Below are positions 1,109-26,300 of a stretch of DNA of 27,768 nucleotides, one piece after another; within the stretch, counting starts at the first letter, position 1, and each line of letters begins with the position of its first letter. The notes under the pieces are model-generated. The model saw nothing but the letters and a program-made list of their open reading frames with translations. It did not search any database and was not told where the DNA came from. The translations under genes were made by a program, and so were the position numbers. Source of the DNA: Reclinomonas americana ATCC 50394 (taxonomy: Eukaryota); the NCBI GenBank assembly GCA_048213135.1, contig PS015014.1, positions 184,973-212,740 of the forward strand. The letters run 5' to 3'.

Positions 1109-4100
1109 TTAGGAACTGCCACTTCTTACGGCGGCAAGGCTCATTGCCACCGCCTGTTGCTCCAACTCGCTCTCCGAGTGCACCAACACATCGTCTTCTG
1201 CGTCCACTTGTCCGTCGCCGGTCACGCCTGTCACAATCAAACGGTTAAGCAGATGCACACGCGACACACACCGCGCAAATGCTGACTGGGCTGGTACCTT
1301 GCGCTTCCTCCTGCTCGTTGCGCATGTACACCAAGAACGAGGCCGCTGGTCGGTTGCGTCCAGTTGACTCCTGTCGCATGAACCGCTCGGTGGCCTGCAT
1401 GCAAACGTGAGGAACGAGGGGGTTGCTGACTGCATTCTCCATTGCACTCAACTCGCTGGCCATCTGCGCCATCCAGAGTGATCCATGTGTTGTCGCGTGT
1501 GTCGAGCGCAAACGTACACTGGCCGACCACCAAGCGCAACGAGTACTCGTCGCCGAGGATGGTCGAAAAGACACTGTCCAACTGTGCCATGAGCTCCGCC
1601 TTTTCCGCGTCGCACTCTGCACACGCGTACAAGTGAGAACAACGCCACTCTCTGCTTGAGGCAACCAACCGCAGGCCACCACGCAACCTGTAATTCGCTG
1701 CCGCACGGTCTCGAGTTCGCAGTCCACCAGCTGGGCAGTCACTTGCAGGTCAGCGTTGCGTCGGAAGCCGCCACTTCTGCAGTACTCCTTCACTCCCTCC
1801 AAGAAGACTTGACGCTGGAACAACCGACTGGAAGCGGGAAGGCCACTATGCAAAGTCTGCAGAGAGCAGCGTGAGCGACACGCTGATGAAACACGACAGT
1901 CGTTTCCTTTCAAACCTTGCACGCCCGCGGCAAGCGCAGTAGTCGCTCCTTGCGATCCTCGCACGCTTGTATCCTACTGTAGATGGAGACAGCCTCCAGG
2001 AAGCATGCCTCCACATCACCCACAGCGTCGGCCGTGTAGCGGCGCATGTGAAGCAGCTGCTCAAACGCAAACTCGCGGATGGCTTCACCCTTGCCACACT
2101 GCCGATCGATCATCAGTCAGTCAGTCAGTCAGGCAACTCAGGTCCCCTTCGTGAAACATACATTCCGACACTGCGACTCACATGCAACGAGACCACCAGC
2201 ATCGGCGGCAGTCTCGTGATGGCGCGCGAGCCGATCGGCATCGGCGACGGTGAGCCCGTGTGATCCATGGTCAACGGCAACAACTGGCGATCGAGCGCAG
2301 CCTGCACGCAAGCACAGTTCTTCACGTCGACGCCCAACTGTGCAAGAGTCTGTGCCAGGCAATCCAGCATTGGTCAGAGTCAGCGCGTGACAACGGCCAA
2401 CACAGCCTGCTCGCTCACTCACCGTGGACTCGCCGGTGTCGAGTTGCGTTGACCGAATGCTGAGAGCACTGGGGAAAACAGACAAACATCTGTGAGCAAT
2501 CGAACCAAGCAGACATGGACACAAGCACACGGCGCGTACTCTTCCACTGCCGCCGCCACCGGCACGCTGCTGCACTGTTGCAGAGTGTGCAACACAACCT
2601 CGTACAAACGCTCCCACACAAGCGCCACGTCTGACAGGCAAGCGCAGAACGTGAGAGACCACATGGAGAACTGCAGAACGAGTCACAAAGAGACAACACA
2701 CCAGATTGCCGCTCTGCTGCGATCCGGCTCACGGTGATGAAGCTGTCCAACAGCGCCTCGCTTGTAAGCTCCACGACCTCGCCGGTACACATCAGATTAG
2801 CAAACAGATTCTGCACGAGAAGCACAACTGCAACACCCCCAGCTCAGCACAGCGACACTGTTCACCGCACAACACAACAACGCACACTCAATGCCCTGGA
2901 AATCGCGAAGCACAGCGTTGCTGTCGGCACGCTCGTCGACAGCCTTCACGGGGTCTGCAGATGCCACAAAGACGCAGTGAGTAATGCGCGCAGGAGTCAG
3001 TGCATGGACACACCGCAGTCGCCGCACCACGAATGTGCAGCGGGGTCGATGTCACCGGACGTGCCGGCACAAAAGCAAAAATGGCACGTCGCATCGGCAG
3101 AATCCAGAATGCCATCAACAAGCACGCATTCAGTGCCGCATGTCCTCTCTTGGTCGGTTGCGACACGAGATGATGCAGAGTGGAGGGATAGTATTGCTGG
3201 GTGGCGTCGGAGTCCAGAGAGAAATTCTCCAGTACGCTCGCTGGGCAACAGATGCAACTAGTAAGTTAGGCAGTTGATACCAGAGCGCAAAGTACTCGGT
3301 TTTTCTCACACCATCCACACAGCGCATCAGCTCCTCGGATCCACGGGCCTCCGCAATGACTGACAGACAGATCAACAGGCGTTCGGCCTGATCCGGGAAG
3401 AGCGACAGTCTGTTTTCCCCCCCCAAGAACGCAATAGATGTAAGTCAACTGCATTAAAGGTCAACAACACGAAATGTCTCTTCACTTCATACCGATTACG
3501 TGTCGCCAGCAGCACCGCAGTGTCGCTGCTGGACGGCAGCGCACCGAGGATTGTGAAAGCAGTTTCCACTTCCGGCACATCGTCCACCTCTGCAATTCAC
3601 ATGCATGCATTCAGCACCGTGACATGGGCAGCAGATGGACATGACACGACAGCAAACCTTCCACCACAGCGGCGACATCTGCACTCAACCCCAGCATGCG
3701 TCTGAGGTGCGAGACGAGCCGTTCGGGGCGCGTCGGCGATTTGACCGAGGTGACAGCATGCTGGAAGCGGAGCGGTGGTGCGCGCCCGTTGATAACATCT
3801 GCGGTAGATCAGTAAAGGAAGTATCACCTCGCCACAAAGAAATCACACACACCTTGCTGGCGATGCAAGCCACACATTTCGCCAAGCACCGAGTCTGTTT
3901 TTGGTCCACCGTCGACAGCAGACTCGGCTGTATCCACTGCATGGATACGATTGCGCAGCAGTTCTTCCGCGAAAGCGTGCAAATCGGACGAATCTGTGCC
4001 CAAGCACGCCGACAGTCACACAGACGGCGGGAGACGCCACCGCATGCGAGGTTCATGGTATACTTACAATACTCCTGGAACTTGAGGTGGCACGCGGTGG

Positions 4101-5400
4101 TGATTGCGAAAAACTCGTCAATAACACGACGAACAAGTCCGTCGGGGCGACCAACGGTTTCGGGCTTCCCGTCAGAGGTGTCTTTCGGGAGGTTGTAGCC
4201 GTACCCGCCTCCGGGTTGATCCACACGTCGGAAGCCAGCAATCTGCAACGATATGCGCGGACGGAGTCAGAATCGTGCTGTGTGCTCCAGCTGAAGGCAG
4301 ACGGGGGAACCTCCAGAGTTCGGGGAAAATACGGAAGCGATCGCAAGAGCGGCGACGACGAGGGGATCCAGCGAGCGCTGCATTCAGGTTTCAGCACGCA
4401 GCAGCGGTAGCAGCACGCGCGCTACGACACGCAACGAATCGTCTTCGGGGTCATCGAGAATCTTGTTGAACACTTGGTGCACCGCTTGCGACAGGCGGAT
4501 CAGCGTCTGCACAGCCAAAAAGTAGTGTTCAGTGCGCAGGCGGCGGGGGAAGAGTCGACACCGAGTCGCGACTCACATCGTAGTTGCCATCCTCACTCAG
4601 CGCACGGAACACACGCGCCAGCAGCGCATCCCTCAACTGCACATGCAGCTCCACCAGCGAATGCTGGCATCGGAACAGGCGTCGATTCGCTGTGCCGTAG
4701 TGCTCCAGCCGTCGCCACGCAAAGCCCTACAAAGAGCAACCCGTGAGCAGTCCCTACCACCCTCACGCTTACCCACACCACGCACCGTATTCGCCGGCAA
4801 CTCCACCGTCACATCTTGCGGAACTCGCAACTGCAGTACAGAGTGATGACTTGCGGCACACAGTCACAGAGAGAGAGAGAGAGAGAGAGAGACGCACAAA
4901 CCTCCACAGTCATCTGGGTGAGTTGCATCACACTGACAAACGCGTGCAGAGTCACTGCGTACTCTCGATTGTAGGGCACGGACGACTCGGGCAAATAGTC
5001 GACCATGATCGTCTGATGATGAAGATGAAGAAGTTGTCAGATGTCCACACTCACGCACACACAATGCCACCCACTCACCTGTGTGGATGAGTAACCCTCG
5101 AGAGGGCTCACACGAAGGAACGACACACTCGGGTCTGTGGAGAAGGCCGTGGACTGCATGCAAATGTGTGAGATGAGTGGCGTGTGTGCGTGAGAGGAGA
5201 GAGACGAGTGTAGAGAGGGATGTTTGGAGACCAGGTGATCAAAGAGACGCTCCGGCGAGTAGTTGAGCATGGAGGCTGCGCGGAATGCAGGTTTTACATA
5301 AGCAAGACCTGCCAAGTGTGCCGAGTGCGACACCGACGTGAAGAGACTCACGATCCATGCGGAGGAGGCCCGCAAGCAGATCCATTCTTGAGAGATCCAT
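1109..5400 (-). CDS. USP25/USP28/Ubp2-like ubiquitin-specific protease-fold protein, probably catalytically inactive, with an N-terminal PUB-like segment; multi-exon, internal exons partly unresolved
   Basis: USP boxes appear in the expected order: RGHAALNACLLMAFWILPMRRAIFAF (Cys-box position), LVQNLFANLM, DVALVWERLYEVV, ITRLPPMLVVSL, IREFAFEQLLHMRRY, a coiled-coil insertion, EYSLRLVVG, WITLDG and ASFLVYMR. The tail is UIM-like (SESELEQQAVAMSL). Probable ATG at 5400 (MDLSRMDLL). Treating the whole span as one gene is an inference. Confidence 0.65.
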
Positions 5401-5571: not shown

Positions 5572-7548
5572 TCAACGACGGCGACGATGACGGTCGGGCG
5601 ATCGGGAACCCGAGGCGGAGCGCGAACGCGNNNNNNNNNNNNNNNNNNNNAGAGGGAGAGGGAGAGGGAGAGGGAGAGGGAGAGGGAGAGGGAGAGGGAG
5701 AGGGAGAGGGAGAGAGAAAGGACGGGAGCAACAAAGGTCACACAAGCATGAGTGAAAAACCGCGATGGAGCGGGGAAGCGAGATGAGAGGAAGGAGAAGG
5801 AGGAATGAGACAGAGACTTGCAGACCCCGGCGACGCACCTCTGTCTTGCCACCCTCGGTGCCCGAGAAGCCCTTGTCGGGTCGGAAACGCTCAGTCTTGG
5901 TGAGCGAATCCATCAGCTGATCACCGCCACCGTACACCTCCGTGTCCACTGCCTTGGGCCTGTACAATTGATTGGCACTGCTGCCACTGAAGAGCGGCTT
6001 GTCGTACACGGCATACGCTGTTCATACAGTGAGCTGCCGGTAGCGACGTGTGTGTGTGCGTAAACAAAAGACGCAACAATCGTCGGCGGCGAATCCCGAT
6101 GTCAGACCCTGACTCGCATTAAACAGACGCTGATCGTACATGAGCTCCTTGGAGGGCGCGGAAGGTCCCTGACCGAGGGCCACTCGCTCACTGATATCAC
6201 GCTCCTCCTCACGCTTCTTCAGTCCACCCGAGGCGCGCAGCGATTCTTTGCGATGTTCACGCTCGCGCTGCTTGCGACGCATCTCACGCAGCTCCTCACG
6301 CTCACGCAGATCTTCATCCGCCTCCGGACTGGTGCAACAGTGTGAGAAGAAGAGGGGAGGGGGAGAGGGGTGGGGAGTTGAACAACGCAACTGGCTCTTC
6401 AGCGATTCGTTCATGCCCGCCACACCGGAGCGCTCCTGACGTGCCAGTCGCGCCTTCTCGCGCAGCTCCTCCTCCTGTTTTGTCCGTTCCTTCTCCTTCA
6501 TCTTGATAATGATCTTGTTGCGCTGCTCAAGCTCCTCGCGTGCCGTCTGGTCGGCCACATACAGGGCCGATGATAGCTTGGCGAACTTGTTGCTGATGGT
6601 GACCTCCTGTGTGCCACGTCCATCGGCCGCCAGACGCTTGTCGAGAGAAATCGTGTAGCCGCGAGGATTCTTCCAGTTGGAGACGCACGGTGGAATGGTC
6701 CAATCCTGCACCTCCTGCGCCGTCGGCTTGCGCGGTGGCGAGTGCATCACCGGCACCGGCGGCGAGCCAGCCCCTGCACGCGAAGATAAATGTTGAGTGC
6801 ATCATCATCACCACTATGTGTGACGCAAAAAATGGAAGAATAGTCAGTCACCTCGCGGGACCTTGACGTGCTTGAACTTTGGCGGCTCCAGTGGATCCGT
6901 GGGCGCCGTCACTGAAGGGTGACGGAGCGGCAAGTGAGCTCACACGAGTGAACCCGTTCCCGCACATCCCAGCGACCAAGCAATGCGAATCACGAAACTC
7001 ATACGAATGATGCGCTGCTGGGCGCCCGAGTTGTGCGCCGCATTCTGCGTGGCTGGCGTGTACCGAATGTACTGCGGCTCCTCCTGCTGCGTGCCCACCT
7101 GCGGCCGTGCGGCCTTGGCCCGCGCATTCATCTTCTCCTCCAGCGCCTTGCGTGTCCTCTCCGCAATCTCCTTCTCCGCCTCCGTATCCGGTCGAGCCAG
7201 TTCATCCTCACCGAACTGCGGAGAGAAGAGGGCAAGAGTGTGAGTGCGGCTCTCTTACACGGCAGTCTTGTCTCTGACATTGGGTGTGCAGAAGTTCTTT
7301 GCTTTTCTCTCGCTCTTTCTATCAATATACCTCTCCCTCACTCACCACACACAGAGACACACCTTCTTCCTCACTTTCTCTCTCTACTCTCTCTCCCTGC
7401 GCACCACGACACTCACCTCCTTCTCATCCAGATCGGCGCGCGTCGAAAAGATCTTCTTGTCCTTGCGCTGCCCCTGCTTCACAATGGCATCAAACTGCAG
7501 GCGTCCATCCGAGTCTGTCTTGAGCGCCACCACCTTGCCCGCGGTCTT
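5572..7548 (-). CDS. SNW1: SNW domain splicing factor SKIP/Prp45, exon 2 onward; part of the C-terminus lies in the gap at 5631-5650
   Basis: QYIRYTP, QRIIRM..DPLEPPKFK, PPVPVMHSPPRK, IPPCVSNWKNPRGYTISLDKRLAADGRG, RDISERVALG, YDQRLFN and RFRPDKGFSG are present. An RS-rich tail ends at the stop at 5572. Confidence 0.95.
5651..5712. repeat. (AGAGGG)n hexamer microsatellite in a SNW1 intron, next to an assembly gap
   Basis: About 10 tandem copies are directly visible. Confidence 0.9.
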
Positions 7549-8187: not shown

Positions 8188-8220
8188 GTTGAGTTGTGGG
8201 GCGTGGTGGGGTGGGTGGGT

Positions 8221-8381
8221 CACTTGTCTCTCTTGTCCTTTGCTCGCTCTCTCTCTCTCTCTGTGTGTGTGTGTCTCCTCTCTCTCGCTCTCTCCCCTCG
8301 TCTTCTGCTTCTGCTTTCTCTTCCCTTGTCGCTCTCTATCTCTTTCTCGCCCTCAATCCTGTTCATCACTTGTCTTGCTCT

Positions 8382-8436
<55 letters not shown>

Positions 8437-8451
8437 TGTCGTTCTCTCTCT
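8221..8451. repeat. CT/GT-rich low-complexity intronic tract next to the long N gap
   Basis: (CT)n and (GT)n runs are directly visible. Confidence 0.85.
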
Positions 8452-9927: not shown

Positions 9928-11321
9928 ATGCAGCTGTTAGCCTTTGCGCGCTCCGTGCGCCCTCTGCTCGCTTGCCGGCATCATCGTTGCGCACGTTCTC
10001 TGCAGCAGTCAGTGCACGAGCAAGACTGATTCTCATCGTTATTGATTCCCCACGTCAGCAGCATTGCTGCGTCAGTGCACGACTGCCGCGTTCTCGACCT
10101 CTTCTCCTGCCCAGTCATCGGTTCCATCATCCTCGCCGCAGCCACCCGGTGTGTATGCTCCTGTGCATGCATGTGGATTCCGACTGTTGTCTGACGGAAT
10201 CTCCCTGCTCCTTCCTCCCCACAGTGAATGCACCGCAACAACAACAACAACAGGACAAGCGTGGGAGTGGCAAAGAGGGAGGCGGTAGTGGTGGTGGAGC
10301 TCGGCCCAACGAGACCAAGCGATCGATCTTTGGCTGGGAGCTTCTGATTGCTGTGCCAGTGGCGATGTTCTTCTCCTTTGTCGGTGTTCCTCGTTGCGTG
10401 CTGTGTCGTGCCGTCGCGCCGTTGATCCGCGCGGCCGTATGTCGCTGATCGTGCCGTCGTACGTTGTTTTGCAGCTCTGTACTACGGGTGAGTCTGCCAT
10501 CCATGTCTTCTTGATACTCTCTGCGCTGTTTCACGTGTGTGCGCGTGTGTGTGTATAGTGTCAAGAGCTCCAGCTGGCCCACAGCCGAGGGTGTCATTGT
10601 CAAGTCGGATATCTTTGAGCAGTCCCGCAAATCGGTCGTGTTCTCCGGTAAGTAGTGCAGGTGGAGGTAGCGCATCGTGTGATCACTACTGTATTTTTGA
10701 CCGCGGTGTGCAGGCACGGACTATTTGCCCGATATCAAGTACCGTTTCCGAGTGCCTGGCGAGACGGCCGATCGCGAGGGATTCATTGTGTCGTTCCGTT
10801 ACTGGGGTGCGCCGCCGGCCCGGCCCGAGGCCGAGTCTCTGCTGGCGCTGTACCCCGTCGGTTCCAAGGTGTTTGAACTCGTTCACGCCGCCATGGTCCG
10901 CTAGCGCTCACTCACTCCTTGCTGCGACATGTGCAGGTCACTGTGCACTATGACCCGTCGCAACCAGGTGTGCTCACGCTCTCTCTCGTCATCTTGCTTC
11001 GAGGGCGTTCCCTGTTTGTTGGTTTGTTGGTTGACGATGCATGTATGTATGTGGCGGCAGAACGCGCGGTGTTGATTCCTGAGATCGGTTGCATCGGTCT
11101 GAGTGCGGCGTTCTCCAGCGCTGCTGTTCTCGCGTTCGGCTTCCGTGTGGGTCCTGCGCGTGGTATTGTTGCGTGTGAGCGTGCATGTGCATTTTGCACT
11201 CGATCACTGTGTTTCTCAACCATCGGCAACACAGTTCACCAGTGCCGTGCTCATCCTCATGGGCTGGCTTGCGCAGTACGGCTGTCAGAACGCCAACAGA
11301 GAGAAACCAGTGGGTGCTTAG
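9928..11321 (+). CDS. DUF3592-like membrane protein with a predicted mitochondrial presequence; about 9 exons
   Basis: Presequence-like MQLLAFARSVRPLLACRHHPALLRQCTTAAFSTSS, then a TM segment (WELLIAVPVAMFFSFVG). This is followed by SSSWPTAEGVIVKS...YLPDIKYRFRV...LALYPVGSKVTVHYDPSQPERAVL and a C-terminal hydrophobic helix. Confidence 0.75.
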
Positions 11322-15032: not shown

Positions 15033-17100
15033 TCAGTCGTGCCCGGCGATCTTCACGACTCGTGCCTGTAGCCGCTGGCTGCCTGTACGTGCCTTGTTCA
15101 TGGTCTTCTCCAGCTCGGACTCGCCGTCCCTCGAGGCGTTCGGACTGCGGGGCGGTCAGCAGGATCAACAACAGCGACGACGACGACCACCATCAACCCA
15201 CGCACCGATGGCGAATCTTTGGTCGCTCCTCGTCGTTGGCGTCGTACGTGCGCAAGTTGCTCGGCAGATCGAGCACCAGTCGCGTCCACTTTTCTTTGAT
15301 CCGCTCCGCCGTACGCTTGTTGGCCTCCGTCTCGCGCGGGTGACGCGAGTACAGATTCACCAGCACACCGATGCGCGAGTCCTTCAAAAAGTCGTCGCGA
15401 ATGCCCATGGAATCGCCCTGATCACCCGGCCGTTGTTCAGTGTCGTCGCCCTCGCACGGCAAGTCAAGCAGGATGCGCAGAATGCAGGTGCGCAGGCTGA
15501 GCGGCGGCAGCGACTTGTCCTTGGCGTTCGGCTTTAGCCAGTCGAACAGCGCCGACAGTAGTGCGTTCTGCAGCAGCGGTCCGACGAAACGCGGACTGTG
15601 GACAAGAGTGAGTGCATAAATACGTGAAGGAAAATGCACACATGCAGAGAGAGGCGAGCATGCACTCAACTTGCGGACGTACTGCTCCAACTTTGACAGC
15701 AGTCGCTCCTTGTGAATTGCTGGCTTGCCCTCTGCATTCAGGCGCTCGTCGGTCTGCTGCGCCACTTGCATCTCCTTGATGAAACGAGAGGCCTATGGCA
15801 GGGGTGAGACATCAATGATTGCGCATCTCACATCGCGCTCGCACATACCGCCTGCACGTAGGACTCGCGTTTGGGGGCCAGATCGGTGACTCGCCGCTTG
15901 ATGTACGCCGTCACCTCGTCCTCCTCCTTCTTCTCTGTGGGCACACATACTCGCGTGAGGCCATATGCCTGCGGTGTGAGAGAGGCACACGCGTGCACTC
16001 TGACGCACTCTGTGACTTCTCCACCGGCTGCTCCGCAATCGCACTGTCAATGTTGATGCGCTTTCGCCGCCGGCCGACACCCTTCTCTTGTTCGTCGTCG
16101 CCACTCTCCTCCTCGCCAATCTCATCGTCGTCCTCGTCCTCGTCGCCAGACTTCTTTCGCCGGCGCCGCTTGCCTTGCGTCTCTCGCTCCTCGTCCATTT
16201 CGGCATCCATCGCAGTCTGCTCGGCCTCCATCGCCACACGCTGCACAGCGACACTGTGAGTCTTCCTCACACACGCACACACGCACACACGCGCACATCA
16301 GCAACAGTCATTGCACCTCCTGCACGAATCGCTCGACGGCCTTCTTGAACAGCGACTTGTACTCGTGCTTGATCTTGTGCTTGAGGTGTTTCAAGTGGCT
16401 AATCACCATGTCGCGCACCGTCGACCGATTCACCGTCGTCAAATCCTCCAGCTCATACACCACCTCGCGAGTGACCTCTTCGATCTGTCGCTTGTCGAGC
16501 TCCTCGTCGTTCTCCTCCTCCTGCAGAGCCGCCGGCCGCTCCGCCTTGCCCTGCTTCTTCAGCTTCTTCAACTTTTTCAGCTTCGACGACAGACTCTCGT
16601 CGTCGCCATCTCCCTCGCCCTCCTCGTCCTCTCCATCGCCATCACCACTCTGGCACACCGTTCAGCAAGGACGACATACAGAGAGAGAGAGAGAGCATGC
16701 AACTCACCTTTTGTCGTTTCCTCGGTGGCTCATCATCGTCGTCGCCAAACAACTCGTCATCGTCGTCGCCCTCGCCCTCGTCGCTCTTCTTTGCGCCCTT
16801 GCTCAACTTGCGCCTCTTTTCCTGTGTTTTTTCACCTTCTCCACTGCCACTGTCATCGTCATCGCTGTCGGCAGCAGCCTTGGATCGCTTTCTCAGCTGC
16901 ACTCACACATACACATACTCATCGTGAGCAGTGTGGTGTGTGTATGCATGTGTGTGTGCGTGTGCGTGTCTTGCTCACCAGTCGCTTCTTCTTCTCCTTG
17001 GGTGCATCGTCGTCCTCTTCTTCATCCTCCTCCTCCTCGTCTTCTCCACTGGCCACTTTGAAATCGCCATCGGCCTCCTCATCTTCATCGTCATGCTCGC
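15033..17100 (-). CDS. IWS1: Transcription elongation factor IWS1/Spn1; start codon probably in the gap at 17179-17198
   Basis: Long acidic N-terminal region, then DERLNAEGKPAIHK, LFDWLKP..DKSLPPLSLRTCILRILLDLP and LKDSRIGVLVNLYSRHPRETEANKRTAERIKEKWTR (TFIIS-N/IWS1 domain). Confidence 0.9.
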
Positions 17101-17198: not shown

Positions 17199-19813
17199 AG
17201 ACGAGAAACAGCCAACACCCCACCACGGGACGCAACTCGGCGTTGGCCTGCTGGATCTCCTGCAAGTCGGCGAGCACCTCGGCCTCGCGTTCAGCATACA
17301 GACGGTTCTTCTTGTCTTGGATCTGCTGTTGTAGCTGCTTGCGATGGTAGGCGCGGTGCGAGTGGGCGTCGTCCGGAGCAGGCGGCTCCACTGGGAACGC
17401 GGTGATATCGCGGTCCAAGTCGATGGCGTGCGGTGCCCGTTGCACTTGCACCGACGCCAATCGCTGTCCCTCCCGCTCGCGCATCTGCGCCTGCAGGAAG
17501 CGTCGGTGGTCGTCCTGGACTTTGCGACGCGACTCGCGATTCGCAGCATCCACACGACGGGTGATTTCCAGCTGCGATTGCTCCTGTTGACGCACGTGCA
17601 CAAGTTAGCAAGGGTCGTCACTGCCGAGCCGGTGACATGCAGAGTGACTTGCCTGTTTCATGTAGTAGTCGTCTTCCTGGAACTCCTTCGCCAGTGTGTC
17701 CTCGTACCGCTTGAACGCCTCCTCCATGGCAGCATCTGTGGGACGTCAAAAAGAAGAGAAAGTCAGACGGGTGGCCACGAAACACAGGAGAACACGAGAC
17801 GAGACGCAACGCATCGCGGTACTGCTGACACCTCGGCCAATGCTGTTCTTCATGGCCATGGACGGCAAGTTGGCCGCCAGAGTGTACGACGCACCGCCGA
17901 CGGAGCCAGACGACGAGCGATTCGAGTGGGGAGAGGCCAGGCCGGGCCGACCGGGGGCGGTGACTGCGCGAGGAATGTCCAGTGATCCGACACGCGTCGC
18001 ACCGTGCGGCGGCGTCATCGGGGCCAACTGCGGACTCGATTGCCGCACAGCCGAGGCGCCATTCTGCGCATCATCACACGCAGACCGAAAAATAGTGAGC
18101 AACGACAACTCTGTGTTGTGGCCACACACAATCAAAAACGAGCAATGCGCACTCTTCTGTCCACCCAGTCCTTGCCGTGCTTGGCCAGCAGATCTCTCTC
18201 CAGCTGCTCAAACTCGCTGTCGAGCTGCCGTCGTCTTCTCTCCTGTGCTTCGGCCTTGCTCAATGCCACCGGACTGTACTCTTGCACCTGTGACCACACG
18301 AAATGAGCGACACGATCACGAGGCTGCGTGTAACCACCGCGCAAACACACACCTGATGCATCAACTCGCCACGCGAGGTCTCGGTCAGATCGCGAGCGCG
18401 ACGATCCAGCTCCTCCTCGTCCGTGTATGGCCAGTGGTCGTGCTTCTCGTGTCGCTTCTCGGCGTCGCGGCGAGCGGCAGCCTCGCGCTTCTGGTGCACC
18501 ACATGCTGATTGTAGCTCAAGTCCTGCTGCGACACATTGGCGGCCTCCAGTCGCTTCCGCCTTTCGTAGTCGAGGGCGGCCAACACACTGCGCTGCGTCG
18601 ACTCGTGCTCCGCTCTCTTGTCGCCATCGTCACGGTGGCCGGGGCGGGCATCCTCGCGTGCGACCAGCGACTGCGATAGCAGCGACGAGCGCTTTGTCGG
18701 ACTGCCGGGAGTGCCAAGTCGCGGCGGACCACCACGCGTTCTCGGTCGTGGCGACGTTTCACCGCCGTTGCTTGCTGCTGCTGCTGCTGCTGATGGGGCA
18801 GATGCAGACGCACTGTTTCCATTCGAAGCTCCAGCCGCCTTGGGAGACTCGATCGTGGCGTGATCGCCGTGCACGGTGAGCACATTGAGTGCGCCGGAAC
18901 CGTTGCCTCCCTCATTGAGTTGCACGTGCTGGCGGCGACCGTGCGCAGGCGAGGCACGTGGAGGCGACACTCTCGATGGCGACACGTTGCCGCCACCACC
19001 GCCACCGGCCAGTCGACCGCTGCGTGAGGGTGGCGGTTGCATGATTTGACCATTGCCGGCGCCCGGCGGGAGCGACAGCGTGGCGATCGGAGTCATGGTG
19101 GAGGCGCCGGTGCTTCCGCTGGCGCCCCCCGAAGCCACTTGCGGTGTCGTCAGGGCGTCCCGGTTGAACTCGTCGGTGTATGTGGTGCTCGGTACGAACT
19201 CCACAATCGCATGCTCGCCCTTGATGGAGCCCATGCCGCCGAGATCGATATTGATCTTCTTCCCGGACGACAGCACCTGCACAAAAAAAAACACGAACAC
19301 ACGGTTGTGTGAGCGGCGTTGGGGAGGGCAGAGACGGGTGCGGACCACTGACCTCGCCCAATCGCTGCACAAACTGTCGCAACGCGGCCACAATCGTGTC
19401 CTTCTTGATCTGACTCTGCTGCGAAATCGCAAACGTGTTCACCTCGGCCATCGGCATCTCATTCGTCACGTGTGGCCTGTTGTGCAACCGCAGCGCATGC
19501 GCCTGCGCAAAGGCCTCGCTGATCACAAACAGCGGATTGCGCTTCGTGGTCTCGCCGGCCACGTTGCGAACGCGCTGCACGACAAACTTGCCCATGCCCG
19601 GCAAGATCACGCCCTGTGTCGCGTGATAAGCACATCGCGCCCTCCCCGCTCATCATCACCAAATCACACGCCCCGCACCTTTTGCAGCGCCAGTTGCCGC
19701 TTGACAAACGCAAAGGTGGCCTCGAAGACGCTGCGATATGTGTTCTCGTCGATCTTCATGAGACGCGACCGAGCCGCACACTCGCGCATGAGATCGTCCA
19801 TGGAGTACGCCAT
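17199..19813 (-). CDS. CCDC81: CCDC81-like protein (two N-terminal HU-like domains, low-complexity linker, coiled coil); 3' end runs toward the gap
   Basis: VFEATFAFVKRQLALQKGVILPGMGKF...NPLFVISEAFAQAHAL and EVNTFAISQQ...FVQRLGEVLSSGKKINIDLGGMGSI match the eukaryotic HU-CCDC81 domains. Q/R/E-rich coiled coil follows. Confidence 0.8.
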
Positions 19814-20262: not shown

Positions 20263-21786
20263 TCACGGATCGGCATCGAGACGTGCTACCATGTCTGTCT
20301 GCGCGACGCGCTGGTATGGGTGAGCCAGCGTCATGGCCACGTTGTGATACACCTGTATACATTGGACTGGTTAGCATCTGTCACGATTGCTGTATGCAAG
20401 CAGCCTCGTGCACACACACCTGGTGGTTGAGGCGACTGTGGTAGGCGAAAGCGGTGCCCGCGTTGCGGATTCGTGTCAGTGTCTGCACGAGAACGGTGAA
20501 GACTTGCTGCTTCAGAGCCTTTTTCTGCCGCGTGCAAAATACGGAGAATATTAGCGCGGATGATTGGAGCACACACACACACACAAGAAGAAGCTCGCCT
20601 CTTCCCATCCCGGTTCCTCCGGATCTGTGCGCTCACTGTGCCATCAACACGTGGTGTGAGTGACCGTCCTTCCTACGATATGCCAAAACTCCTGCTTTGC
20701 GCGCACCACAAGAACACGGTATCCATGTAGAAGTTCTCGTCGTTGACCACCCGTTCGACTGCACGCATGGCCGACGGCGTCTCGCTAAACGTGGGCACGA
20801 CATTGGAGCGGCCGTAGATGACCACAGCGCGCAGAATGAACTTGCCAATCTCTTCACCACGCGGCAAGTACGGCTCACTGCCACGAAAGACAAATCAGCG
20901 GGCGTGGCGAAGATGTGGCGACTCCCAGCGCTGCACTGCCCGATCGCACCATGACTCAAACACACTCGACATGTCAAAGGAGGTGTAGACGGAGCCGGGT
21001 CGGAAGTCGCCCAGCTTGCGCACCGCTGTAAACTCGCTGTATGTGAATGGTTGCACCTGGAAGAGGAGTGCATGAATAGGGGGGAAGGCGCAAGGTGAGA
21101 GAGGGCGCAAGGTGTAGGCCACCACGCACCAGTGTCGCTCGCTCACGCATGGTGGCCAGCGCGTACTCGTGCTTGTTCGACAGTCGGGCCTTGGCGTGAA
21201 TGAACGACTTGATGGCGTTCTTGACCACATCCAAGCGCGTCTCGTAACGACCGCGCATGTGCATCCTATGTTAGACACACACACACGCGTGAGTGAACAA
21301 GGCGAGTGAGTGCACAACAGCCGGGCGACAAGACACAACTCTTCGCCAGTGTAATCAAAATTCCTGCGCACACACACACGAGACAACAATCAGCGCGCGC
21401 GCGTCGGAGAAAACACACCCTAGCAGATAACAGCAACGCACATCATCTCGTCACCGAGATCAATGAAGAACATCTGTCGAGTGTGTGAGCTCGCAAGTCA
21501 TCACCGCCATGTGCACTCTCGCTCACACAGACGCAACAATCTTCTCTGGGCAGCTCTTGGGCAACTCCAGCCGCTCGGGCATTGGCGGCGGCACTGGTGC
21601 CACTGATGCAGCGGCAGCAGCTGACTCCTCCTCAGCAGGTAATGCAGCAGCAGAGGGTGCTTCCTCATGTGGCTCCGCGTGAGGAGGCTCGCTGTGTGTG
21701 GCTGCGTCGGCGGCCGGCGACGCCGCCGAGAAGCTCGTGTAGGCGTCTTCGGCCGCGCGGCGTGGAGAGGTTCGCGGGGAACTCAT
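20263..21786 (-). CDS. BABAM1: BRISC and BRCA1-A complex member 1 (MERIT40/NBA1), vWA-like
   Basis: CPEKIMFFIDLGDEM, RLDVVKNAIKSFIHAK..LSNKHEYAL, FDMSSVF, ILRAVVIYGRS, FYMDTVFL and the terminal MTLAHPYQR (human LLAHPLQR). Confidence 0.9.
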
Positions 21787-21908: not shown

Positions 21909-23267
21909 TTACGCCTCTGTGTCTTGCGAAAAGTAGTCGTCGTCGAAGTGGTGCACGCGGATCACACCTTCCTCGCCACCGCTGACAAACCTGCGTAAGG
22001 AACAACACAAAATGAGTAATCATCATCACGACTTCACCCTTCCATCCACAACGCACCCTCTGCCGTCTGGTGCAAACTGCAGCGTGTTGACGGGTCCAAA
22101 GTGACCGGCCACGGCGCCCAGCTCCATGCCGTAGTACTTGTGGAAGAACTTGGTTTCGAACTTGCCGGCACGACCCGCTGTTGTTGTCACATCGCGAGCT
22201 TGCTGACCACCACCCAGAATCACGTGGTCGCGGATCGGACTGCGCACACGCCACAAGCTAAGCACAAGATCAGCGCAGCGCACCATCACCTTGTCACATC
22301 CAAACCTAATGTCCACATCGTTGACAATCGTGTCGCTCTCGTAGGCTTTCGCACACTCGCCGCTCCGCATGTCCCACATCTTCGCCGAGTGATCCGCAGA
22401 CGCCGACAACACGCAGTGGCCGTTGTAGGCTGTCCTGATGTGGTTCACCGTGCCGTCGTGTGCGTCGATCTTGAGAATTAGCCTGCCCGTCTCCGTATCC
22501 CACTGTCGCACCGTCTTGTCTTCCGAGCACGAAATCACCGTGGCGTTCAGCGGACCCCACTTGCAGTCGGTGATGCGCTTGTCGTGGCCGAGAATCTTCA
22601 TCTTCGGTTGCGTCGTCTGCTCCCGCGGGTCAAACGACTTGCTGGTCATCAGGTCCTCGGCCACATCGTACAGATTGATGGCCGGCTGGTAGCCGAAAGT
22701 GGAATCGGTGCACGACAAGAACTGTCGCTCACCCAGTGCCAGCGACACCGCACGGACCTGGCGACTCGTGTGTGAGTCTCTGCGCTGGCGGAAAGCAGTA
22801 AAGAACAACGCAACGGCAGTCGGATGCTCAATGGACCACAGCAGAGTGCCAGATTGCACATCCCAAATGCGCACATTCTCGTCACCACCTGCGCTAATCA
22901 GGCGCGTCGAGTCGCGTGAGACGTCCACTTGCCACACCACACCATTGTGGCCCTGTGCAGAGTGTGAGCAAGAGAGCAAGAGAGGAAGAGAGAGCTCAGA
23001 AAAGAGACCTTGAAAATGCCCATTCGCTCGCCATTATCCGTGCGCCACATGGTGATCATCTTGTCCTTGGAGGCGGTGAACAGCAGATCGCCGTCGTGGT
23101 TGTAGCGCACGCACTGTGCAGTGCAGCTTCAGTGAGACATGTCGGCACATGCACACACGCACACACGAACACACGCACACACGCACACACACAACGAGCG
23201 CGTGTCTGTCAAGCAGTGCACTCACCGTGATAGGGCGCTCATGGCCCGTCAACATAATAGGCCGCAT
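21909..23267 (-). CDS. EIF3I: Eukaryotic translation initiation factor 3 subunit I (WD40)
   Basis: MRPIMLTGHERPIT, YNHDGDLLFTASKD, DHVILGGGQQARDVTTT..GKFETKFFH, GHFGPVNTL and SGGEEGVIRVHHFD. Confidence 0.97.
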
Positions 23268-23384: not shown

Positions 23385-26300
23385 ATGCTTGATCAGTTTG
23401 TGATTTGCACACGTGGCGGCCTGGTGCTGTTCCACTGGGAACCTCGCGGCGCGCTTCCTGTGCCCGGTCGTCCCATCAACACGCTCATGTCCGCACTTCT
23501 CGAGGCATGTTCCTCCGCCCTGCCTTGCTCTCTCTCTCTGTTGCTCTCTGTCGCGCGCGCGCTCTCTCTCTTTGTGTTTGAATGTCTCTCAGTTGGATTG
23601 GCCACCAACGTCTCAAATTGGTTGTTTCTCTTTTGTGCGCGCGCGTCACACAGGGTCGCAGTGGCAGTGTGGAGACGGAGACGCACGCGGTGAAGCATTT
23701 GGTGGTCAACGAGCACAGCATCATTCTTGCAGTTGCGTTGTTGAATGCGATCACGCCACGCCACACGCAATGCGCGCCGAATCACTGACGCCGAATCCCT
23801 CAGGCGGTGTTTAGCAAGAAGCGACCGCTGCCGTACATAGACCTGCTGTTGCGACAGGAGCGCGATGCGTTTGTGAAGGAGTTTGGTGCGGCTGCGTTGC
23901 GGCAGCCGGCGCTGCATCGGTTTGAGGAGTTTGTCGGGCGCTTTGACGCGGTGCTGGCCGACGTTGAAACCGATCACTTTTCGCGACGTGGTGCTGGGCG
24001 CAAGATGGTGACCTCGGCCGGCAGCGATGGCGACGATGATGAGGCGGAGAATAGCGATGGAGAGGTGTCGTCGCATGCGGTGCGAGGCAAGAACGGCACC
24101 ACCACCACCACCACCACCACCACCACGACGGTCACGGCGTCGGAGGAGGACGAGTCGTCGGGACCGCACACCCCGCAGGCGGATCGCTTCTTGCGCGTGG
24201 GCAACGATCTCGGCCGCTCCTCGTCCGATCCCATGAGCTTGTCGCCCGACGGTTCTCCGTCGGCCGCCAGCGATGGTTCCGGTGTGCAGAGTGACCAGGG
24301 ATCGCCGTCGTCGGCGGGCGACGCTGCTCGCAGGGCACTAGGCAAGCTGCTGCCCAGAGGAGTTGGTGAGTTCTCTTTGTTGTCGTTGTTGTGTAGATTG
24401 TCGCTGACTGGCTCGTGGTCAGGCGCCAAGGCTCCTCGTCGCACTGGTTTGGTGGCCAAGGCGGTCAAGAAGCCAGCCGAGTTGCGTGCTTGTGATTGTG
24501 TGCACGAGTATGTGTGCATGTGCTCACGATGGTGTTGTTGTTGTTGCTGCTGCCGTGATCGACAGGCCACCAAAACCAAAGGGCAAGCAGAAGACGAACT
24601 GGGACGATCTGATGCCCGACGACGGAACACGCGCTGTAACCGAGGATCGCATTCGCGCTCACGACCGATCGGCGGTGCTTACAGAGGAGGAGAGGCGAGA
24701 GGCCGAGGAACGCGAGGTGACGGAGACACGTCGTCGCTTCCTGAGGAGCCCCAGCAGTGGTAACGATGGTGGTGGTGCCAGTGGATCGGGATCCAGCAGC
24801 TCCGCCCCTGCCGACAATCCGCGCACCAGTGGAGGCTTGCTGTCGTACTTTAGTCGGCTGGTGGGTGGTGCACCGCTGACGGAGGAAACCCTGGCGCCGG
24901 CCCTGGAAAAGGTCAAGGACAAGCTGATGACGAAGAATGTGGCCGCCGGTATTGCCGACGAGCTGTGTGCCGGAATTCAGCAAGAGTTGCTCGGCAAGAG
25001 CCTCGGCACTTTTAATAGTTGCGTGGGGGAAGGAGGAAATAGGAAAGGGGAGGGCGAAGAGAAGAAAGATGAGGAGGAGGAGTGTCACAATTGCTGATCG
25101 AAGGGCGCACTCTGCAGCTGTGGCGTCGTCCGTGTCCAAGGCGCTGGAGGATTCACTGCGTCGTATTCTGACACCGAAGCAAAATATCGACGTGTTGCGC
25201 GAGGTGACGCGTGCGCGGGAGGAGGAAAATCGACCGTACACGATTGTGTTTGTGGGTGTGAATGGTGTGGGCAAGAGCACGTCGTTGGCCAAGGTGTGTG
25301 TGTGTGAAAGAGAGACAAGGGAAGGGAAGGGAGTATGAGTGCGCAGCTTACGGTCTTTTTTCCAGGTGTGCTACTGGCTGCTTCAGCAACGCAAGCAAGT
25401 GATGATCACGGCGTGCGACACATTCCGTTCGGGTGCCGTGGAACAGCTGCGTACTCATGCGCGTGCCTTGGACGTGGAGCTGTTTGAGCGTGGCTACGGC
25501 AAGGATCCGGCCGCCATTGCGCAGGAGGGCATTCGATATGGTGCGTGGTAGGGGAAGGAAGGAGAGATGGGGAGGGAGGAAGGAGGGAGGATGCCAAGGA
25601 AGAGAGAGGAAAGGAAGGTGACAAGCAGAACGTGACAGAGGCAGAGAGGGGAAGGAAGGAGAGAAAGAGAGGGAAGAAAGTGAGGAGAGAGAAAGAGAGA
25701 GGGTGAGTGAGTGAATGAGTAGAGAGAAGGAGAGGAAGAAAGCGACAAGAGAGAGAGAGGAAGGAAGGAAGGAAGGAGAGATACGGAGGAAGTAAAGAAA
25801 GGATAGGGAACGAGAAGGAAGAGTGGGCGAGGGCCACAGAGAAAAAGATAGAAAGAGACTGAGGAAGTGTGAGAAAAGGGAGCGGAAATAAATAAGTATG
25901 GAAGCGACTCACAGAGAAAGATAGAGACGGAGGCGGGGGGGGAGTGAGAGACGGAGGCGGGGGGAGTGAGAGAAAGGCAGAGTGAGTGTCCGTGTATTCT
26001 AACTGCCTCCCTCTCCTACTTGCACAGGCAAGGACAACGGCAAGGATGTGGTGCTGATCGACACAGCCGGACGCATGCAAGACAACATGCCGCTGATGGA
26101 GGCACTGGCCAAATTGATCCACTTCAATTCTCCCGACTTGATTCTCTTTGTCGGCGAGGCACTGGTCGGCAACGACGCCGTGGATCAGCTGACGAAATTT
26201 AACCAGGCTCTGCAGGACCTGACCCCGGCCGGTCGACCATCGCGTCTCATCGATGGTATTGTGCTCACCAAATACGACACTGTCGACGACAAGGTTCGAT

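What the first reader, a model, noticed from the sequence alone, without database searches (positions are those of the whole stretch)
1395..25024. Shifted donors almost always follow a non-G exon base
The -1 exon base of the 19 shifted donors is A in 9 (149, 1452, 6391, 6998, 15670, 21339, 23732, 24481, 25018), C in 6 (4435, 9986, 10393, 13153, 17810, 22814), T in 3 (6077, 8188, 21537) and G in only 1 (1687). Most ordinary donors I traced follow G (AAG|GT, CAG|GT, GAG|GT). Inference: the intron's +1 G may stand in for the usual -1 G when U1 slides by one base. This suggests a compensatory rule for exon ends fixed by coding constraint and favours a shifted register over a simple bulge.
Basis: partly seen in the sequence, partly recalled or inferred. 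Interest (0 to 1): 0.75.

Follow-up and report, generated by a model that had tools for sequence, protein, structure and literature searches.

The report
Second splice-donor class avoids exon G
About a quarter of the introns in this stretch begin with GTTGCGT rather than the usual pattern; these almost never follow an exon-final G while the other introns almost always do, a sharp two-class splice signal that still needs RNA data and the organism's own U1 RNA to explain.

Summary
All 19 coordinates are the first G of a GTT-type donor: GTTGCGT 11, GTTGAGT 3, GTTTCGT 2, GTTGCGC, GTTACGT and GTTGTGT 1 each. The -1 tally A9/C6/T3/G1 is exact.

These are real GT-AG introns. Nine of 19 are backed by protein homology, 3 fit it, 3 rest on reading frame only, and 4 are uncertain (1687, 4435, 9986, 13153). 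I found two more, at 781 and 11168.

In genes checked against homologues, GTT-class donors follow G in 0 of 16 and ordinary donors in 24 of 26 (Fisher p = 9e-10). Over all 89 modelled introns the counts are 2 of 23 against 46 of 66 (p = 3e-7).

The exon and intron profiles of the class both match the ordinary profile moved by one base.

With the canonical U1 5' end, however, GTTGCGT pairs at only about -1 kcal/mol in any register, against -6.9 for ordinary donors. The U1-slide mechanism is therefore not established.

The exon-G versus intron-motif trade-off is itself a published principle. The displaced GUUGCGU motif and its abundance look new. There were no RNA reads and no genome, so the genome-wide test could not be run.

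The parts
149..219 (+). Class-2 intron in the PDH E2 gene. Donor gaa|GTTTCGT, -1 A.
   Evidence: Pfam PF00198 runs 3-42 in the upstream exon and 44-119 in the downstream exon, with position 43 as the split codon. Read-through hits a stop.
781..851 (+). Donor caa|GTTGCGT, -1 A.
   Evidence: Chosen by the gene finder. Pfam fixes the frames on both sides. By my reading of the frames, the GTGAGT at 810 cannot join the downstream frame through any nearby AG. Other frame-compatible GT..AG pairs exist but lack a donor consensus.
1395..1452 (-). Class-2 intron in gene 2 (unknown family). Donor cga|GTTGAGT, -1 A.
   Evidence: 58 nt, so a frame change is required between two coding segments. No homology check.
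1617..1687 (-). Class-2 candidate in gene 2. Donor cag|GTTGCGT, the only -1 G. Uncertain.
   Evidence: An in-frame alternative donor at 1669 (GTTGGT) uses the same acceptor, and the gene finder chose it.
4378..4435 (-). Class-2 candidate in gene 2. Donor ttc|GTTGCGT, -1 C. Uncertain.
   Evidence: Read-through stops at codon 17. The site needs a second intron with donor gag|GTTCCC at 4310. The rival is a single 183-nt intron starting at 4425.
6018..6077 (-). Class-2 intron in SNW1. Donor att|GTTGCGT, -1 T.
   Evidence: The unspliced frame aligns to solved SNW1/Prp45 chains up to ...GFAADD. The spliced model continues SYAVYDKPLF...YRP. Read-through stops.
6329..6391 (-). Class-2 intron in SNW1. 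Donor cca|GTTGCGT, -1 A. In frame and free of stops.
   Evidence: It lies in the stretch where the unspliced frame has 32 residues against 5 in human SNW1. In-frame coding score is -0.18 per nt against +0.12 and +0.16 in the flanks.
6912..6998 (-). Class-2 intron in SNW1. Donor tga|GTTTCGT, -1 A.
   Evidence: Pfam PF02731 ends at 23 in the upstream exon (a weak match, E 0.059) and resumes at 26 at residue 2 of the next exon.
8188..8451 (+). Class-2 donor gat|GTTGAGT (-1 T) after SNW1 exon 1. The intron runs into the N gap at 8452.
   Evidence: Exon 7981-8187 (+) aligns to human SNW1 residues 24-79, E 1.3e-16, ending ...YPLDMGRK. The acceptor was not determined.
9986..10058 (+). Class-2-like candidate. 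Donor atc|GTTGCGC, -1 C. Uncertain.
   Evidence: Needed only if translation starts at the ATG at 9928. The frames close, but the coding score is negative on both sides.
10393..10474 (+). Class-2 intron in the DUF3592-like gene. Donor ctc|GTTGCGT, -1 C.
   Evidence: Chosen by the gene finder. No frame-compatible alternative within 24 nt. The family match is weak (E 0.037).
11168..11234 (+). Donor att|GTTGCGT, -1 T.
   Evidence: Traced by hand. The eight-intron model translates without a stop.
13082..13153 (-). Class-2 candidate. Donor ctc|GTTACGT, -1 C. Uncertain.
   Evidence: 72 nt, in frame and free of stops. Coding scores are uninformative. The gene finder picks it only with a lenient penalty.
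15596..15670 (-). Class-2 intron in IWS1. Donor caa|GTTGAGT, -1 A.
   Evidence: The alignment of the unspliced frame to human IWS1 breaks at residue 41/42 and resumes at 74. That is 32 residues against 7 in human, and the excess of 25 equals the 75-nt intron.
17736..17810 (-). Class-2 intron in the CCDC81-like gene. Donor tgc|GTTGCGT, -1 C.
   Evidence: Chosen by the gene finder. Read-through stops at codon 21, and both flanks score as coding.
21266..21339 (-). Class-2 intron. Donor aga|GTTGTGT, -1 A.
   Evidence: The spliced model aligns without gaps to P0121. Leaving this intron in drops the score from 209 to 76.
21474..21537 (-). Class-2 intron. Donor att|GTTGCGT, -1 T.
   Evidence: Without it the model has 6 stops. 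P0121 carries a 25-residue insertion at exactly this junction.
22758..22814 (-). Class-2 intron in eIF3I. Donor gcc|GTTGCGT, -1 C. In frame and free of stops.
   Evidence: The upstream exon ends at Pfam PF24805 position 94. In-frame coding score is -0.07 per nt against +0.06 and +0.07 in the flanks. The downstream profile start was not seen.
23732..23803 (+). Class-2 intron in SR-alpha. Donor gca|GTTGCGT, -1 A.
   Evidence: Ungapped alignment across ...IILA|AVFS... to P0005.
24481..24565 (+). Class-2 intron in SR-alpha. Donor cga|GTTGCGT, -1 A.
   Evidence: The model with this donor scores 1436 against P0005. With the in-frame alternative at 24508 it scores 1428. The gene finder had chosen 24508.
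25018..25117 (+). Class-2 intron in SR-alpha. Donor ata|GTTGCGT, -1 A.
   Evidence: Ungapped alignment across ...LGTFN|TVASS... to P0005.
440..500 (+). Ordinary intron. Donor aag|GTAGTT.
   Evidence: Pfam PF00198 runs 119 to 121 across the junction.
582..646 (+). Ordinary intron. Donor cag|GTCTGT.
   Evidence: Pfam PF00198 runs 146 to 147 across the junction.
6774..6851 (-). Ordinary intron. Donor gag|GTGACT.
   Evidence: The spliced sequence HVKVPRGAGSPPVPV matches solved SNW1 chains.
15935..16008 (-). Ordinary intron with a non-G exon end. Donor aga|GTGCGT.
   Evidence: Gene finder only. Many frame-compatible alternatives exist.
21364..21441 (-). Ordinary intron with a non-G exon end. Donor gat|GTGCGT.
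   Evidence: Ungapped alignment to P0121. Without it the model has 2 stops.
21991..22056 (-). Ordinary intron. Donor agg|GTGCGT.
   Evidence: Pfam PF24805 runs 298 to 300 across the junction.
22953..23008 (-). Ordinary intron. Donor aag|GTCTCT.
   Evidence: Pfam PF24805 runs 49 to 50 across the junction.
23505..23653 (+). Probable GC-AG intron. Donor gag|GCATGT.
   Evidence: This model scores 1436 against P0005, compared with 1415 for the GT alternative at 23489.
25294..25365 (+). Ordinary intron. Donor aag|GTGTGT.
   Evidence: Pfam PF00448 runs 20 to 23 across the junction. Ungapped to P0005.
25541..26027 (+). Ordinary long intron (487 nt). Donor atg|GTGCGT.
   Evidence: Ungapped to P0005.
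26294..26364 (+). Ordinary intron starting with GTT but following G. Donor aag|GTTCGA.
   Evidence: Pfam PF00448 runs 152(+4) to 157 across the junction. Ungapped to P0005.

Best explanation
The listed sites are donors of ordinary GT-AG, U2-type introns. They form a second, sharply defined donor class with the seven-base motif GUUGCGU (variants GUUGAGU, GUUUCGU), one U longer than the genome's usual GUGCGU/GUGAGU.

The window shows a two-way rule. Either the exon ends in G and the intron start may be loose (G|GUNNNN), or the exon ends in A, C or U and the intron carries a strong motif, most often GUUGCGU. This is the published compensation between the exon side and the intron side of the 5' splice site (AG//GUNNN against NN//GURAG), here with an intron-side motif displaced by one base.

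The most likely reading (inferred) is that the recognition head sees A-G-U-U-G-C-G-U as it sees A-G-G-U-G-C-G-U. The intron's first G then takes the place of the usual exon-final G, and chemistry still cuts in front of the only GU. That is a +1-shifted register.

Shown here: the class is real, its -1 base is non-G, and both flanks match the ordinary profile shifted by one. Not shown: which RNA or protein reads the motif. The canonical U1 5' end pairs too weakly with GUUGCGU in any register. So either this organism's U1 differs (for example G/C in place of the two pseudouridine positions, which would also fit the general preference for C at +4), or U6/U5 or a protein supplies the specificity.
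For: - The motifs and the -1 tally at the 19 coordinates are exact.
- GTTGCGT occurs 22 times against 3.6 expected. Thirteen of the 22 sit at inferred donors and 9 do not.
- Junctions are supported by homology: 149 and 6998 by Pfam profile continuity, 6077 and 6391 by SNW1 alignments, 8188, 15670 by an insertion of exact intron length, 23732 and 25018 by ungapped alignment to P0005, with 24481 favoured, and 21339 and 21537.
- -1 G: 0 of 16 class-2 against 24 of 26 ordinary in homology-checked genes (p = 9.2e-10). Over all models, 2 of 23 against 46 of 66 (p = 3e-7), and 17 of 25 for strong ordinary donors (p = 2.7e-5).
- Non-donor GTTGCGT sites have -1 G in 3 of 9.
- Class-2 -1 is A in 8 of 14 (p = 0.003 against 21%), resembling ordinary -2 at 54% A.
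- Intron positions +4..+8 of class 2 mirror +3..+7 of ordinary donors.
- The branch motif CTSAY, the CAG acceptor and the median length of 72 nt are the same in both classes.
- Donors that start with GTT and do follow G (8995, 26294, 4310 and others) lack the GCGT tail.
- The either/or principle is published (PMC11732430, section 4 read). The human shifted-register model site in Tan et al. is ACA/GUCAAGUAUA, with -1 A (PMC4856993, passages).
Against: - No RNA reads and no genome were available, so every junction is inferred from frames, motifs and homology.
- About half of the ordinary donors come only from my own gene finder.
- In the four genes without a homology check the contrast alone is not significant (p = 0.10-0.14).
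- With the canonical U1 5' end, class-2 donors pair at a mean of -0.3 (canonical), -1.2 (shifted) and -1.05 (bulged) kcal/mol, against -6.9 for ordinary donors. A -1 G would add about 5 kcal/mol in the bulged register.
- Apart from the lack of G, the exon profile is not better fitted by the shift than by background (-57.9 against -60.0).
- A is not significantly commoner at -1 in class 2 (10 of 21 non-G sites) than in ordinary donors that lack G (6 of 20); counts are, and no test was run.
- Most junctions have other frame-compatible GT..AG pairs within 24 nt.
Confidence: 0.55

Rival explanations
1. Pure either/or compensation without any register shift. GUUGCGU is a strong intron-side signal, read with the extra U bulged out (+2/+3 bulge) by U1 and/or the U6 ACAGA box. 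It is kept by selection only where the exon cannot end in G. Where the exon ends in G the motif is free to decay, so sites carrying the motif are almost never preceded by G.
For: Exon-side and intron-side strength are known to be anti-correlated (PMC11732430, section 4). The +2/+3 bulge register is an accepted human register with 54-68 predicted sites (PMC4856993, Table 3). Bulged and shifted registers have nearly the same energy for GTTGCGT (-1.05 against -1.2). Ordinary donors lacking -1 G also exist, and 12 of 20 have a strong GT[AG][ACT]GT. Without the G term, the exon profile of class 2 is close to background.
Against: In a bulged register -1 faces U1 C9, and a G there would add about 5 kcal/mol. 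Yet G is below background (0 of 16). A is enriched at -1 (8 of 14, p = 0.003), as expected if -1 faces U10. An exon ending in non-G would pair better with plain GUGCGU (-4.0) than with GUUGCGU (-2.2), so the extra U is unexplained.
Confidence: 0.2
2. A dedicated reader. The genome carries a U1 with a divergent 5' end, or a second U1-like snRNA complementary to GUUGCGU (ACGCAAC). The GTT class would then be a separate recognition channel rather than a slid canonical U1.
For: The motif is invariant over seven bases (G20 T20 T20 G17 C17 G20 T19 of 20), yet the canonical U1 end barely pairs with it. In silico, changing U1 positions 5-6 to GC raises class-2 pairing from -1.8 to -6.8 and ordinary pairing from -7.0 to -9.9 kcal/mol. 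An inserted-A variant gives -9.2 for class 2. C is the commonest +4 base even in ordinary donors (9 of 22).
Against: No snRNA gene lies in the window (Rfam gathering scan, 0 hits), and no genome could be searched. The U1 5' end is very widely conserved (recalled). Branch sites and acceptors do not differ between the classes. The variants are my own hypothetical strings.
Confidence: 0.17
3. An intron family spread by a mobile element (introner). On this view the shared start GTTGCGT and the non-G exon end reflect the element's end and its target site.
For: A shared seven-base start and similar lengths (57-100 nt).
Against: The intron interiors are no more alike than those of ordinary introns. 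Mean local alignment score is 7.4 for class 2 against class 2, 8.2 for ordinary against ordinary, and 7.9 across classes. Exon ends are A, C or T without a fixed target. These introns lie in old housekeeping genes.
Confidence: 0.03
4. A tracing artefact. The GTT sites are not donors, or the true boundary lies one base downstream (AG|TTGCGT).
For: No RNA evidence. Four of the 19 have credible alternatives. Most junctions have other frame-compatible GT..AG pairs.
Against: Nine junctions agree with homologues, several to the exact residue. A boundary one base downstream with the same acceptor would remove 74 rather than 75 nt at 15670 and break the frame. Moving both ends would need 3' ends AGT, AGC or AGA, because the next exon starts with G in only 5 of 13. 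The heptamer is six-fold enriched.
Confidence: 0.05

Closest known systems
+1 shifted-register 5' splice sites (Roca and Krainer 2009, recalled; summarised in Tan et al. 2016, PMC4856993, passages read)
   Same: The intron starts GU followed by an extra pyrimidine, and the rest of the consensus lies one base late. The intron's +1 G is proposed to pair where -1 G normally pairs. The model site in the paper is ACA/GUCAAGUAUA, with A at -1, as in 9 of 16 checked sites here.
   Different: In humans these sites are rare: all validated non-canonical registers together make up 1.5% of sites. Here the class is 16 of 42 checked introns and 23 of 89 modelled introns. The motif is GUUGCGU rather than GUNAAGU. 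With the canonical U1 end its shifted helix is only about -1 kcal/mol, against -6.5 predicted for the human model oligonucleotide. No suppressor-U1 evidence exists for this organism.
[quoted passage not shown]
   Same: Exon-side G at -1 and a strong intron-side motif are anti-correlated. One class relies on the exon end and the other on the intron start.
   Different: The intron-side motif here is one base longer, with U at +3 and C at +5. The separation is almost complete (0 of 16 against 24 of 26) rather than a tendency. A canonical-register intron-side class (H|GTGCGT, H|GTGAGT) is present as well.
U1 register with a bulged 5' splice-site nucleotide at +2/+3 (Roca et al. 2012, recalled; Tan et al. 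2016, Table 3)
   Same: GUU followed by a consensus displaced by one base can be drawn with one U bulged.
   Different: A bulge keeps -1 opposite C9, so -1 G should stay favoured. Here it is excluded.
U12-type (minor) introns (recalled)
   Same: A long, nearly invariant 5' motif with no exon-side consensus.
   Different: The motif is not RTATCCTT. The branch sites (CTSAY, 11-27 nt from the 3' end) are the same as in ordinary introns. The class is far too frequent.

Membership tests
U2-type GT-AG spliceosomal intron | GT at the 5' end and AG at the 3' end, with removal restoring the reading frame | tested here: met
   All 20 class-2 introns with a defined acceptor run from GT to AG. The spliced models of E2, SNW1, IWS1, eIF3I, SR-alpha, the small gene and the DUF3592-like gene translate cleanly. 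Homology supports 9 junctions.
U2-type GT-AG spliceosomal intron | Branch-site motif a short distance upstream of the acceptor | tested here: met
   CT[CGA]A[CT] was found in 11 of 13 class-2 and 15 of 23 ordinary introns, 11-31 nt from the 3' end.
+1 shifted-register 5' splice site | Pairing to the U1 5' end is clearly more stable in the +1 register than in the canonical register | tested here: inconclusive
   Met for GTTGAGT (-5.1 against 0, bulge -3.1). For GTTGCGT the values are about -1 to -2 against 0, no better than the bulge. The organism's own U1 is unknown.
+1 shifted-register 5' splice site | Exon and intron positions follow the canonical consensus moved by one base (-1 like -2, +3..+7 like +2..+6) | tested here: met
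   -1 is A-rich and lacks G, like ordinary -2. Positions +4..+8 mirror ordinary +3..+7. Apart from the G term, the exon fit is not better than background.
+1 shifted-register 5' splice site | Rescue by suppressor U1 designed for the shifted register | not testable with these tools
   Needs experiments.
Bulge +2/+3 register | -1, +1 and +2 pair canonically, so -1 G remains favoured | tested here: not met
   -1 G in 0 of 16 checked sites and 2 of 23 modelled sites.
Two 5' splice-site classes (exon-side against intron-side compensation) | Anti-correlation between -1 G and a strong intron-side motif | tested here: met
   Fisher p = 9.2e-10 and 3e-7. Within ordinary donors alone, however, strong and weak intron starts are equally frequent with and without -1 G (24/22 against 12/8, p = 0.6).
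U12-type intron | 5' motif RTATCCTT and a TCCTTAAC branch site | tested here: not met
   The motifs differ. The U12 motifs themselves are recalled.
Introner / transposon-derived intron family | Sequence similarity along the intron body | tested here: not met
   Interior similarity is no higher than among ordinary introns.

The most novel reading that the evidence does not exclude
This lineage may run a second 5' splice-site code. A quarter to a third of its introns would use the invariant motif GUUGCGU, cut one base upstream of where the recognition helix would place the cut. The motif would be read by a U1 whose 5' end differs from the near-universal ACUUACCUG (for example G/C at positions 5-6), or by a second U1-like RNA, with U6 also pairing one base out of register. 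That would be a natural, genome-scale use of a register known so far only from rare human sites.
Probability: 0.3. Interest if true: 0.85.

Novelty: new variant of a known kind. Interest (0 to 1): 0.62.

Why it matters
Shifted or bulged recognition of 5' splice sites is known from a small fraction of human sites and was shown by laborious suppressor experiments. The exon-side against intron-side trade-off is a statistical tendency in animals and plants.

Here both appear in an extreme, almost digital form in a compact protist-like genome with short introns. One class needs an exon-final G. The other has a fixed seven-base intron start and excludes that G.

If it holds genome-wide, three things follow. 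It gives a natural system for asking which RNA (U1, U5, U6) fixes the cleavage site as opposed to the binding site. It makes a concrete, quickly checkable prediction about the organism's U1 5' end. And it matters for annotation, because gene finders trained on GTNNGT donors will misplace about a quarter of the exon ends. One homologue from the public protein library (P0121) reads through introns at two of these positions.

Tried and rejected
RNA and genome evidence
- No RNA or DNA holder was listed for window:17199-27198.
- No whole genome is held for this window, so the genome-wide contingency test and a search for U1 genes could not be run.
- The Rfam gathering scan and the tRNA scan of the window found nothing.

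Gene finding
- A codon-usage Viterbi was too weak.
- Self-training of splice matrices ran away to 120-150 introns.
- An EM over anchor pairs did not converge on a clean motif.
- I then used hand-set intron scores (GTNNGT or GTTNNGT, branch CTSAY, YAG, length) that never look at exon bases. I corrected some genes by hand.

Homology
- Word-index searches with exons of gene 2 and of the 21-kb gene found nothing.
- The window's own annotated proteins were not among the hits.
- Searches of solved structures for the eIF3I junction were swamped by WD-repeat proteins. A 50-residue piece gave no Pfam hit. Intron 22814 therefore rests on the upstream profile end and on coding scores.

Organism guesses, used only to look for published splice motifs
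- Plasmodiophora introns are described as 55 nt with CTGAC branches (PMC2483917, passages). That is not a match.
- Andalucia godoyi is intron-poor (PMC7050145, passages). That is not a match.
- The closest listed SR-alpha is from the jakobid Seculamonas, 86% identity over 88 residues. The source of the window was not pursued.

Literature
- GTTGCGT, GUUGCGU, GTTGAGT and GUUGAGU as whole words occur in one unrelated paper.
- Searches on shifted register, jakobid introns and Reclinomonas gave no description of such a donor class. This is not proof that none exists. Subscription journals and supplements were not searchable.

Readings rejected
- A TT...GG boundary, and a boundary one base downstream. 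The frames and the mixed first bases of the next exon exclude both.
- A donor at 810 in E2, which is incompatible with the frame.
- An introner origin.

Full report
WHAT THE WINDOW IS. The window is eukaryotic nuclear DNA. It has 57% G+C, five N gaps, tightly packed genes on both strands and many short introns.

Pfam and solved-structure searches identify the following genes:
- PDH E2 (1-996, +).
- SNW1/SKIP (about 8187 to 5838, -).
- IWS1 (16231-15033, -).
- A CCDC81-like gene (19595-16308, -).
- eIF3I (23255-21909, -).
- SRP receptor alpha (23385-26490, +).
- A DUF3592-like gene (9928-11320, +).
- A small membrane protein (8882-9321, +).
- Three genes without a family: gene 2 (about 5400-1109, -), an IQ-like gene (13559-11546, -) and a gene at 21582-20263 (-).

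The closest listed SR-alpha is from the jakobid Seculamonas, 86% identity over 88 residues. The source organism was not pursued.

THE OBSERVATION. One search shows that each of the 19 coordinates is the first G of a GTT-type heptamer on the gene's strand: GTTGCGT 11, GTTGAGT 3, GTTTCGT 2, and GTTGCGC, GTTACGT and GTTGTGT 1 each.

GTTGCGT occurs 22 times on both strands against 3.6 expected. GTTNNGT as a whole (62 occurrences) is not enriched; only NN = GC stands out.

ARE THEY INTRONS? No RNA run was listed and no genome is held. I therefore built gene models and tested junctions against homologues.

After three failed unsupervised attempts, I used a Viterbi gene finder. Its intron score uses only intron-internal features (GTNNGT or GTTNNGT, a CTSAY branch, YAG, length) and never the exon bases. 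I corrected several genes by hand.

Homology checks:
- 149. The Pfam 2-oxoacid_dh profile runs 3-42 and then 44-119 across the junction.
- 6998. The SKIP_SNW profile ends at 23 and resumes at 26 (the first match is weak).
- 6077 and 6391. The unspliced frame aligns to solved SNW1 chains with a break where the introns lie. The spliced protein continues with the conserved SYAVYD...YRP block.
- 8188. The exon in front of it aligns to human SNW1 residues 24-79.
- 15670. The unspliced frame has 32 residues where human IWS1 has 7. The excess of 25 is exactly the 75-nt intron.
- 23732 and 25018. The spliced SR-alpha aligns without gaps across both junctions to P0005. The model using 24481 scores 1436, against 1428 with the alternative donor at 24508.
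- 21339 and 21537. The spliced protein aligns without gaps to P0121. Leaving either intron in collapses the score or introduces stops.
- 22814. Supported by the upstream profile end and by coding scores.

- 9 are backed by homology (149, 6077, 6998, 8188, 15670, 21339, 21537, 23732, 25018).
- 3 fit homology (6391, 22814, 24481).
- 3 rest on frames and the gene finder (1452, 10393, 17810).
- 4 are uncertain: 1687 has an in-frame alternative at 1669, 4435 needs a two-intron solution, 9986 lies in a weak N-terminal region, and 13153 is in frame without a stop.

Most junctions have other frame-compatible GT..AG pairs within 24 nt. The choice therefore rests on homology together with the recurrent heptamer.

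THE CONTRAST.
- Homology-checked genes. Class-2 donors (GTTNNG[TC], excluding GTNNGT) number 16, with -1 = A9, T4, C3, G0. Ordinary donors number 26, with -1 = G24, A1 (16008), T1 (21441). Fisher p = 9.2e-10. One ordinary pick (9180) has an in-frame GTGTGT alternative with -1 T and no homologue to decide between them.
- Adding the four genes modelled only by the gene finder. With its own picks, class 2 has 1 G of 21 and ordinary donors 46 G of 67. Both give p about 3e-7. In those four genes alone the contrast is not significant (p = 0.10-0.14). Several of their weak donors without -1 G may be mispredictions.
- Strong ordinary donors only (GT[AG][AC]GT). 17 of 25 follow G, against 2 of 23 for class 2 (p = 2.7e-5).
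- Non-donor GTTGCGT sites. The nine such sites have -1 = G3, A3, T2, C1.
- Donors that start with GTT and do follow G (8995, 26294, 4310, 4901, 3657) lack the GCGT tail.

Class 2 makes up 16 of 42 checked introns and 23 of 89 modelled introns.

WHAT KIND OF DIFFERENCE IS IT? Branch motifs, their distance from the acceptor, the CAG acceptor and the median length (72 nt) are the same in both classes. Intron interiors show no family resemblance, so this is not an introner family.

The intron side of class 2 is the ordinary profile moved by one base. Positions +4..+8 are G17, C17, G20, T19, G11 of 20. Ordinary positions +3..+7 are G15, C9/T7/A5, G18, T19, G10 of 22.

The exon side moves too. Class-2 -1 (A 57%, C 21%, T 21%, G 0%) resembles ordinary -2 (A 54%, C 21%, G 12%, T 12%) and not ordinary -1 (G 96%). 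A at -1 is enriched over background (8 of 14, p = 0.003).

The cut itself is in front of the G. At 15670 exactly 75 nt must go. The next exon starts with G in only 5 of 13 class-2 introns, so sliding both boundaries by one base would need 3' ends other than AG.

MECHANISM. A whole-motif shift, in which A|GUUGCGU is read like AG|GUGCGU with U in place of the first intron G, is what Roca and Krainer proposed for rare human sites. Their model site in Tan et al. 2016 is ACA/GUCAAGUAUA, also with A at -1 (PMC4856993, passages). A bulged U would leave -1 opposite U1 C9 and keep G favoured, which is not seen.

Energy calculations with the canonical U1 5' end (AUACUUACCUG, printed in PMC4856993) do not carry it. 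Class-2 sites pair at a mean of -0.3 (canonical), -1.2 (shifted) and -1.05 (bulged) kcal/mol, against -6.9 for ordinary donors. Only GTTGAGT clearly prefers the shift (-5.1 against -3.1). A -1 G would add about 5 kcal/mol. An exon ending in non-G would pair better as H|GUGCGU (-4.0) than as H|GUUGCGU (-2.2).

An invariant motif that the canonical U1 end barely binds suggests one of three things:
- A U1 5' end that differs in this lineage.
- A second reader.
- A dominant role for U6/U5.

In silico, G/C at U1 positions 5-6 would raise class-2 pairing to -6.8 and ordinary pairing to -9.9 kcal/mol, with class 2 in the shifted register. This would also fit the general preference for C at +4. It is a prediction, not a finding.

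Depletion of -1 G by itself is also what the published either/or compensation predicts. That principle describes two classes, AG//GUNNN and NN//GURAG, attributed to U5 loop 1 and the U6 ACAGA box (PMC11732430, sections 4 and 8 read).

NOVELTY. The trade-off between exon-final G and intron-side strength is known, and so are the shifted and bulged registers. What I did not find in print is a donor class GUUGCGU, its frequency, or an almost complete exclusion of -1 G. The searches were made, over open-access papers and preprints only, with supplements closed. I file it as a new variant of a known kind, pending RNA data and a genome-wide count.

VERDICT. The register and the reading RNA remain open.

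Noticed in passing
7939-8451 (between the N gaps at 7919-7938 and 8452-8643): SNW1 exon 1 (7981-8187) lies on the + strand, while the rest of the gene runs on the - strand from 7548 downwards. The small contig between the two gaps looks inverted in the scaffold. The first SNW1 intron therefore cannot be measured.
   Followed up: partly
23505-23653 (+): A probable GC-AG intron (gag|GCATGT...CACAG) in SR-alpha. This model aligns better to the Seculamonas homologue than the GT alternative at 23489 (1436 against 1415).
   Followed up: partly
whole window, ordinary donors: Exon-final G is almost obligatory for ordinary donors in the checked genes (24 of 26). C, not A, is the commonest base at +4 (9 of 22). 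The next exon starts with G in 15 of 23 ordinary introns but only 5 of 13 class-2 introns.
   Followed up: partly
P0121 against window 21582-20962 (-): The only clear homologue of this gene in the representative library carries a 25-residue insertion exactly at the 21537 intron. It also runs into non-homologous sequence exactly at the 21129 intron. This looks like unspliced introns at conserved positions in a relative's gene model.
   Followed up: partly
25541-26027 (+), 7216-7416 (-), 8188 onward (+): A few introns are much longer than the 55-100 nt norm. They are filled with GA/CT and GT microsatellites. Similar repeats (GAGGGA, TCAG, GA, CTG) border the assembly gaps.
   Followed up: no
13016-13063 and 13082-13153 (-): Two candidate introns in the IQ-like gene are both in frame and free of stops. 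They could equally be coding (the read-through gives an IQ-like ...RAATILQKQF...). This gene's model is the least secure.
   Followed up: partly
1109-5400 (-): Gene 2 encodes a protein of more than 800 residues in about 23 small exons, with no Pfam family. The only hit is a weak one to the RPT repeat of UCH proteins (E 8e-4). A word-index search with one exon found no homologue.
   Followed up: partly
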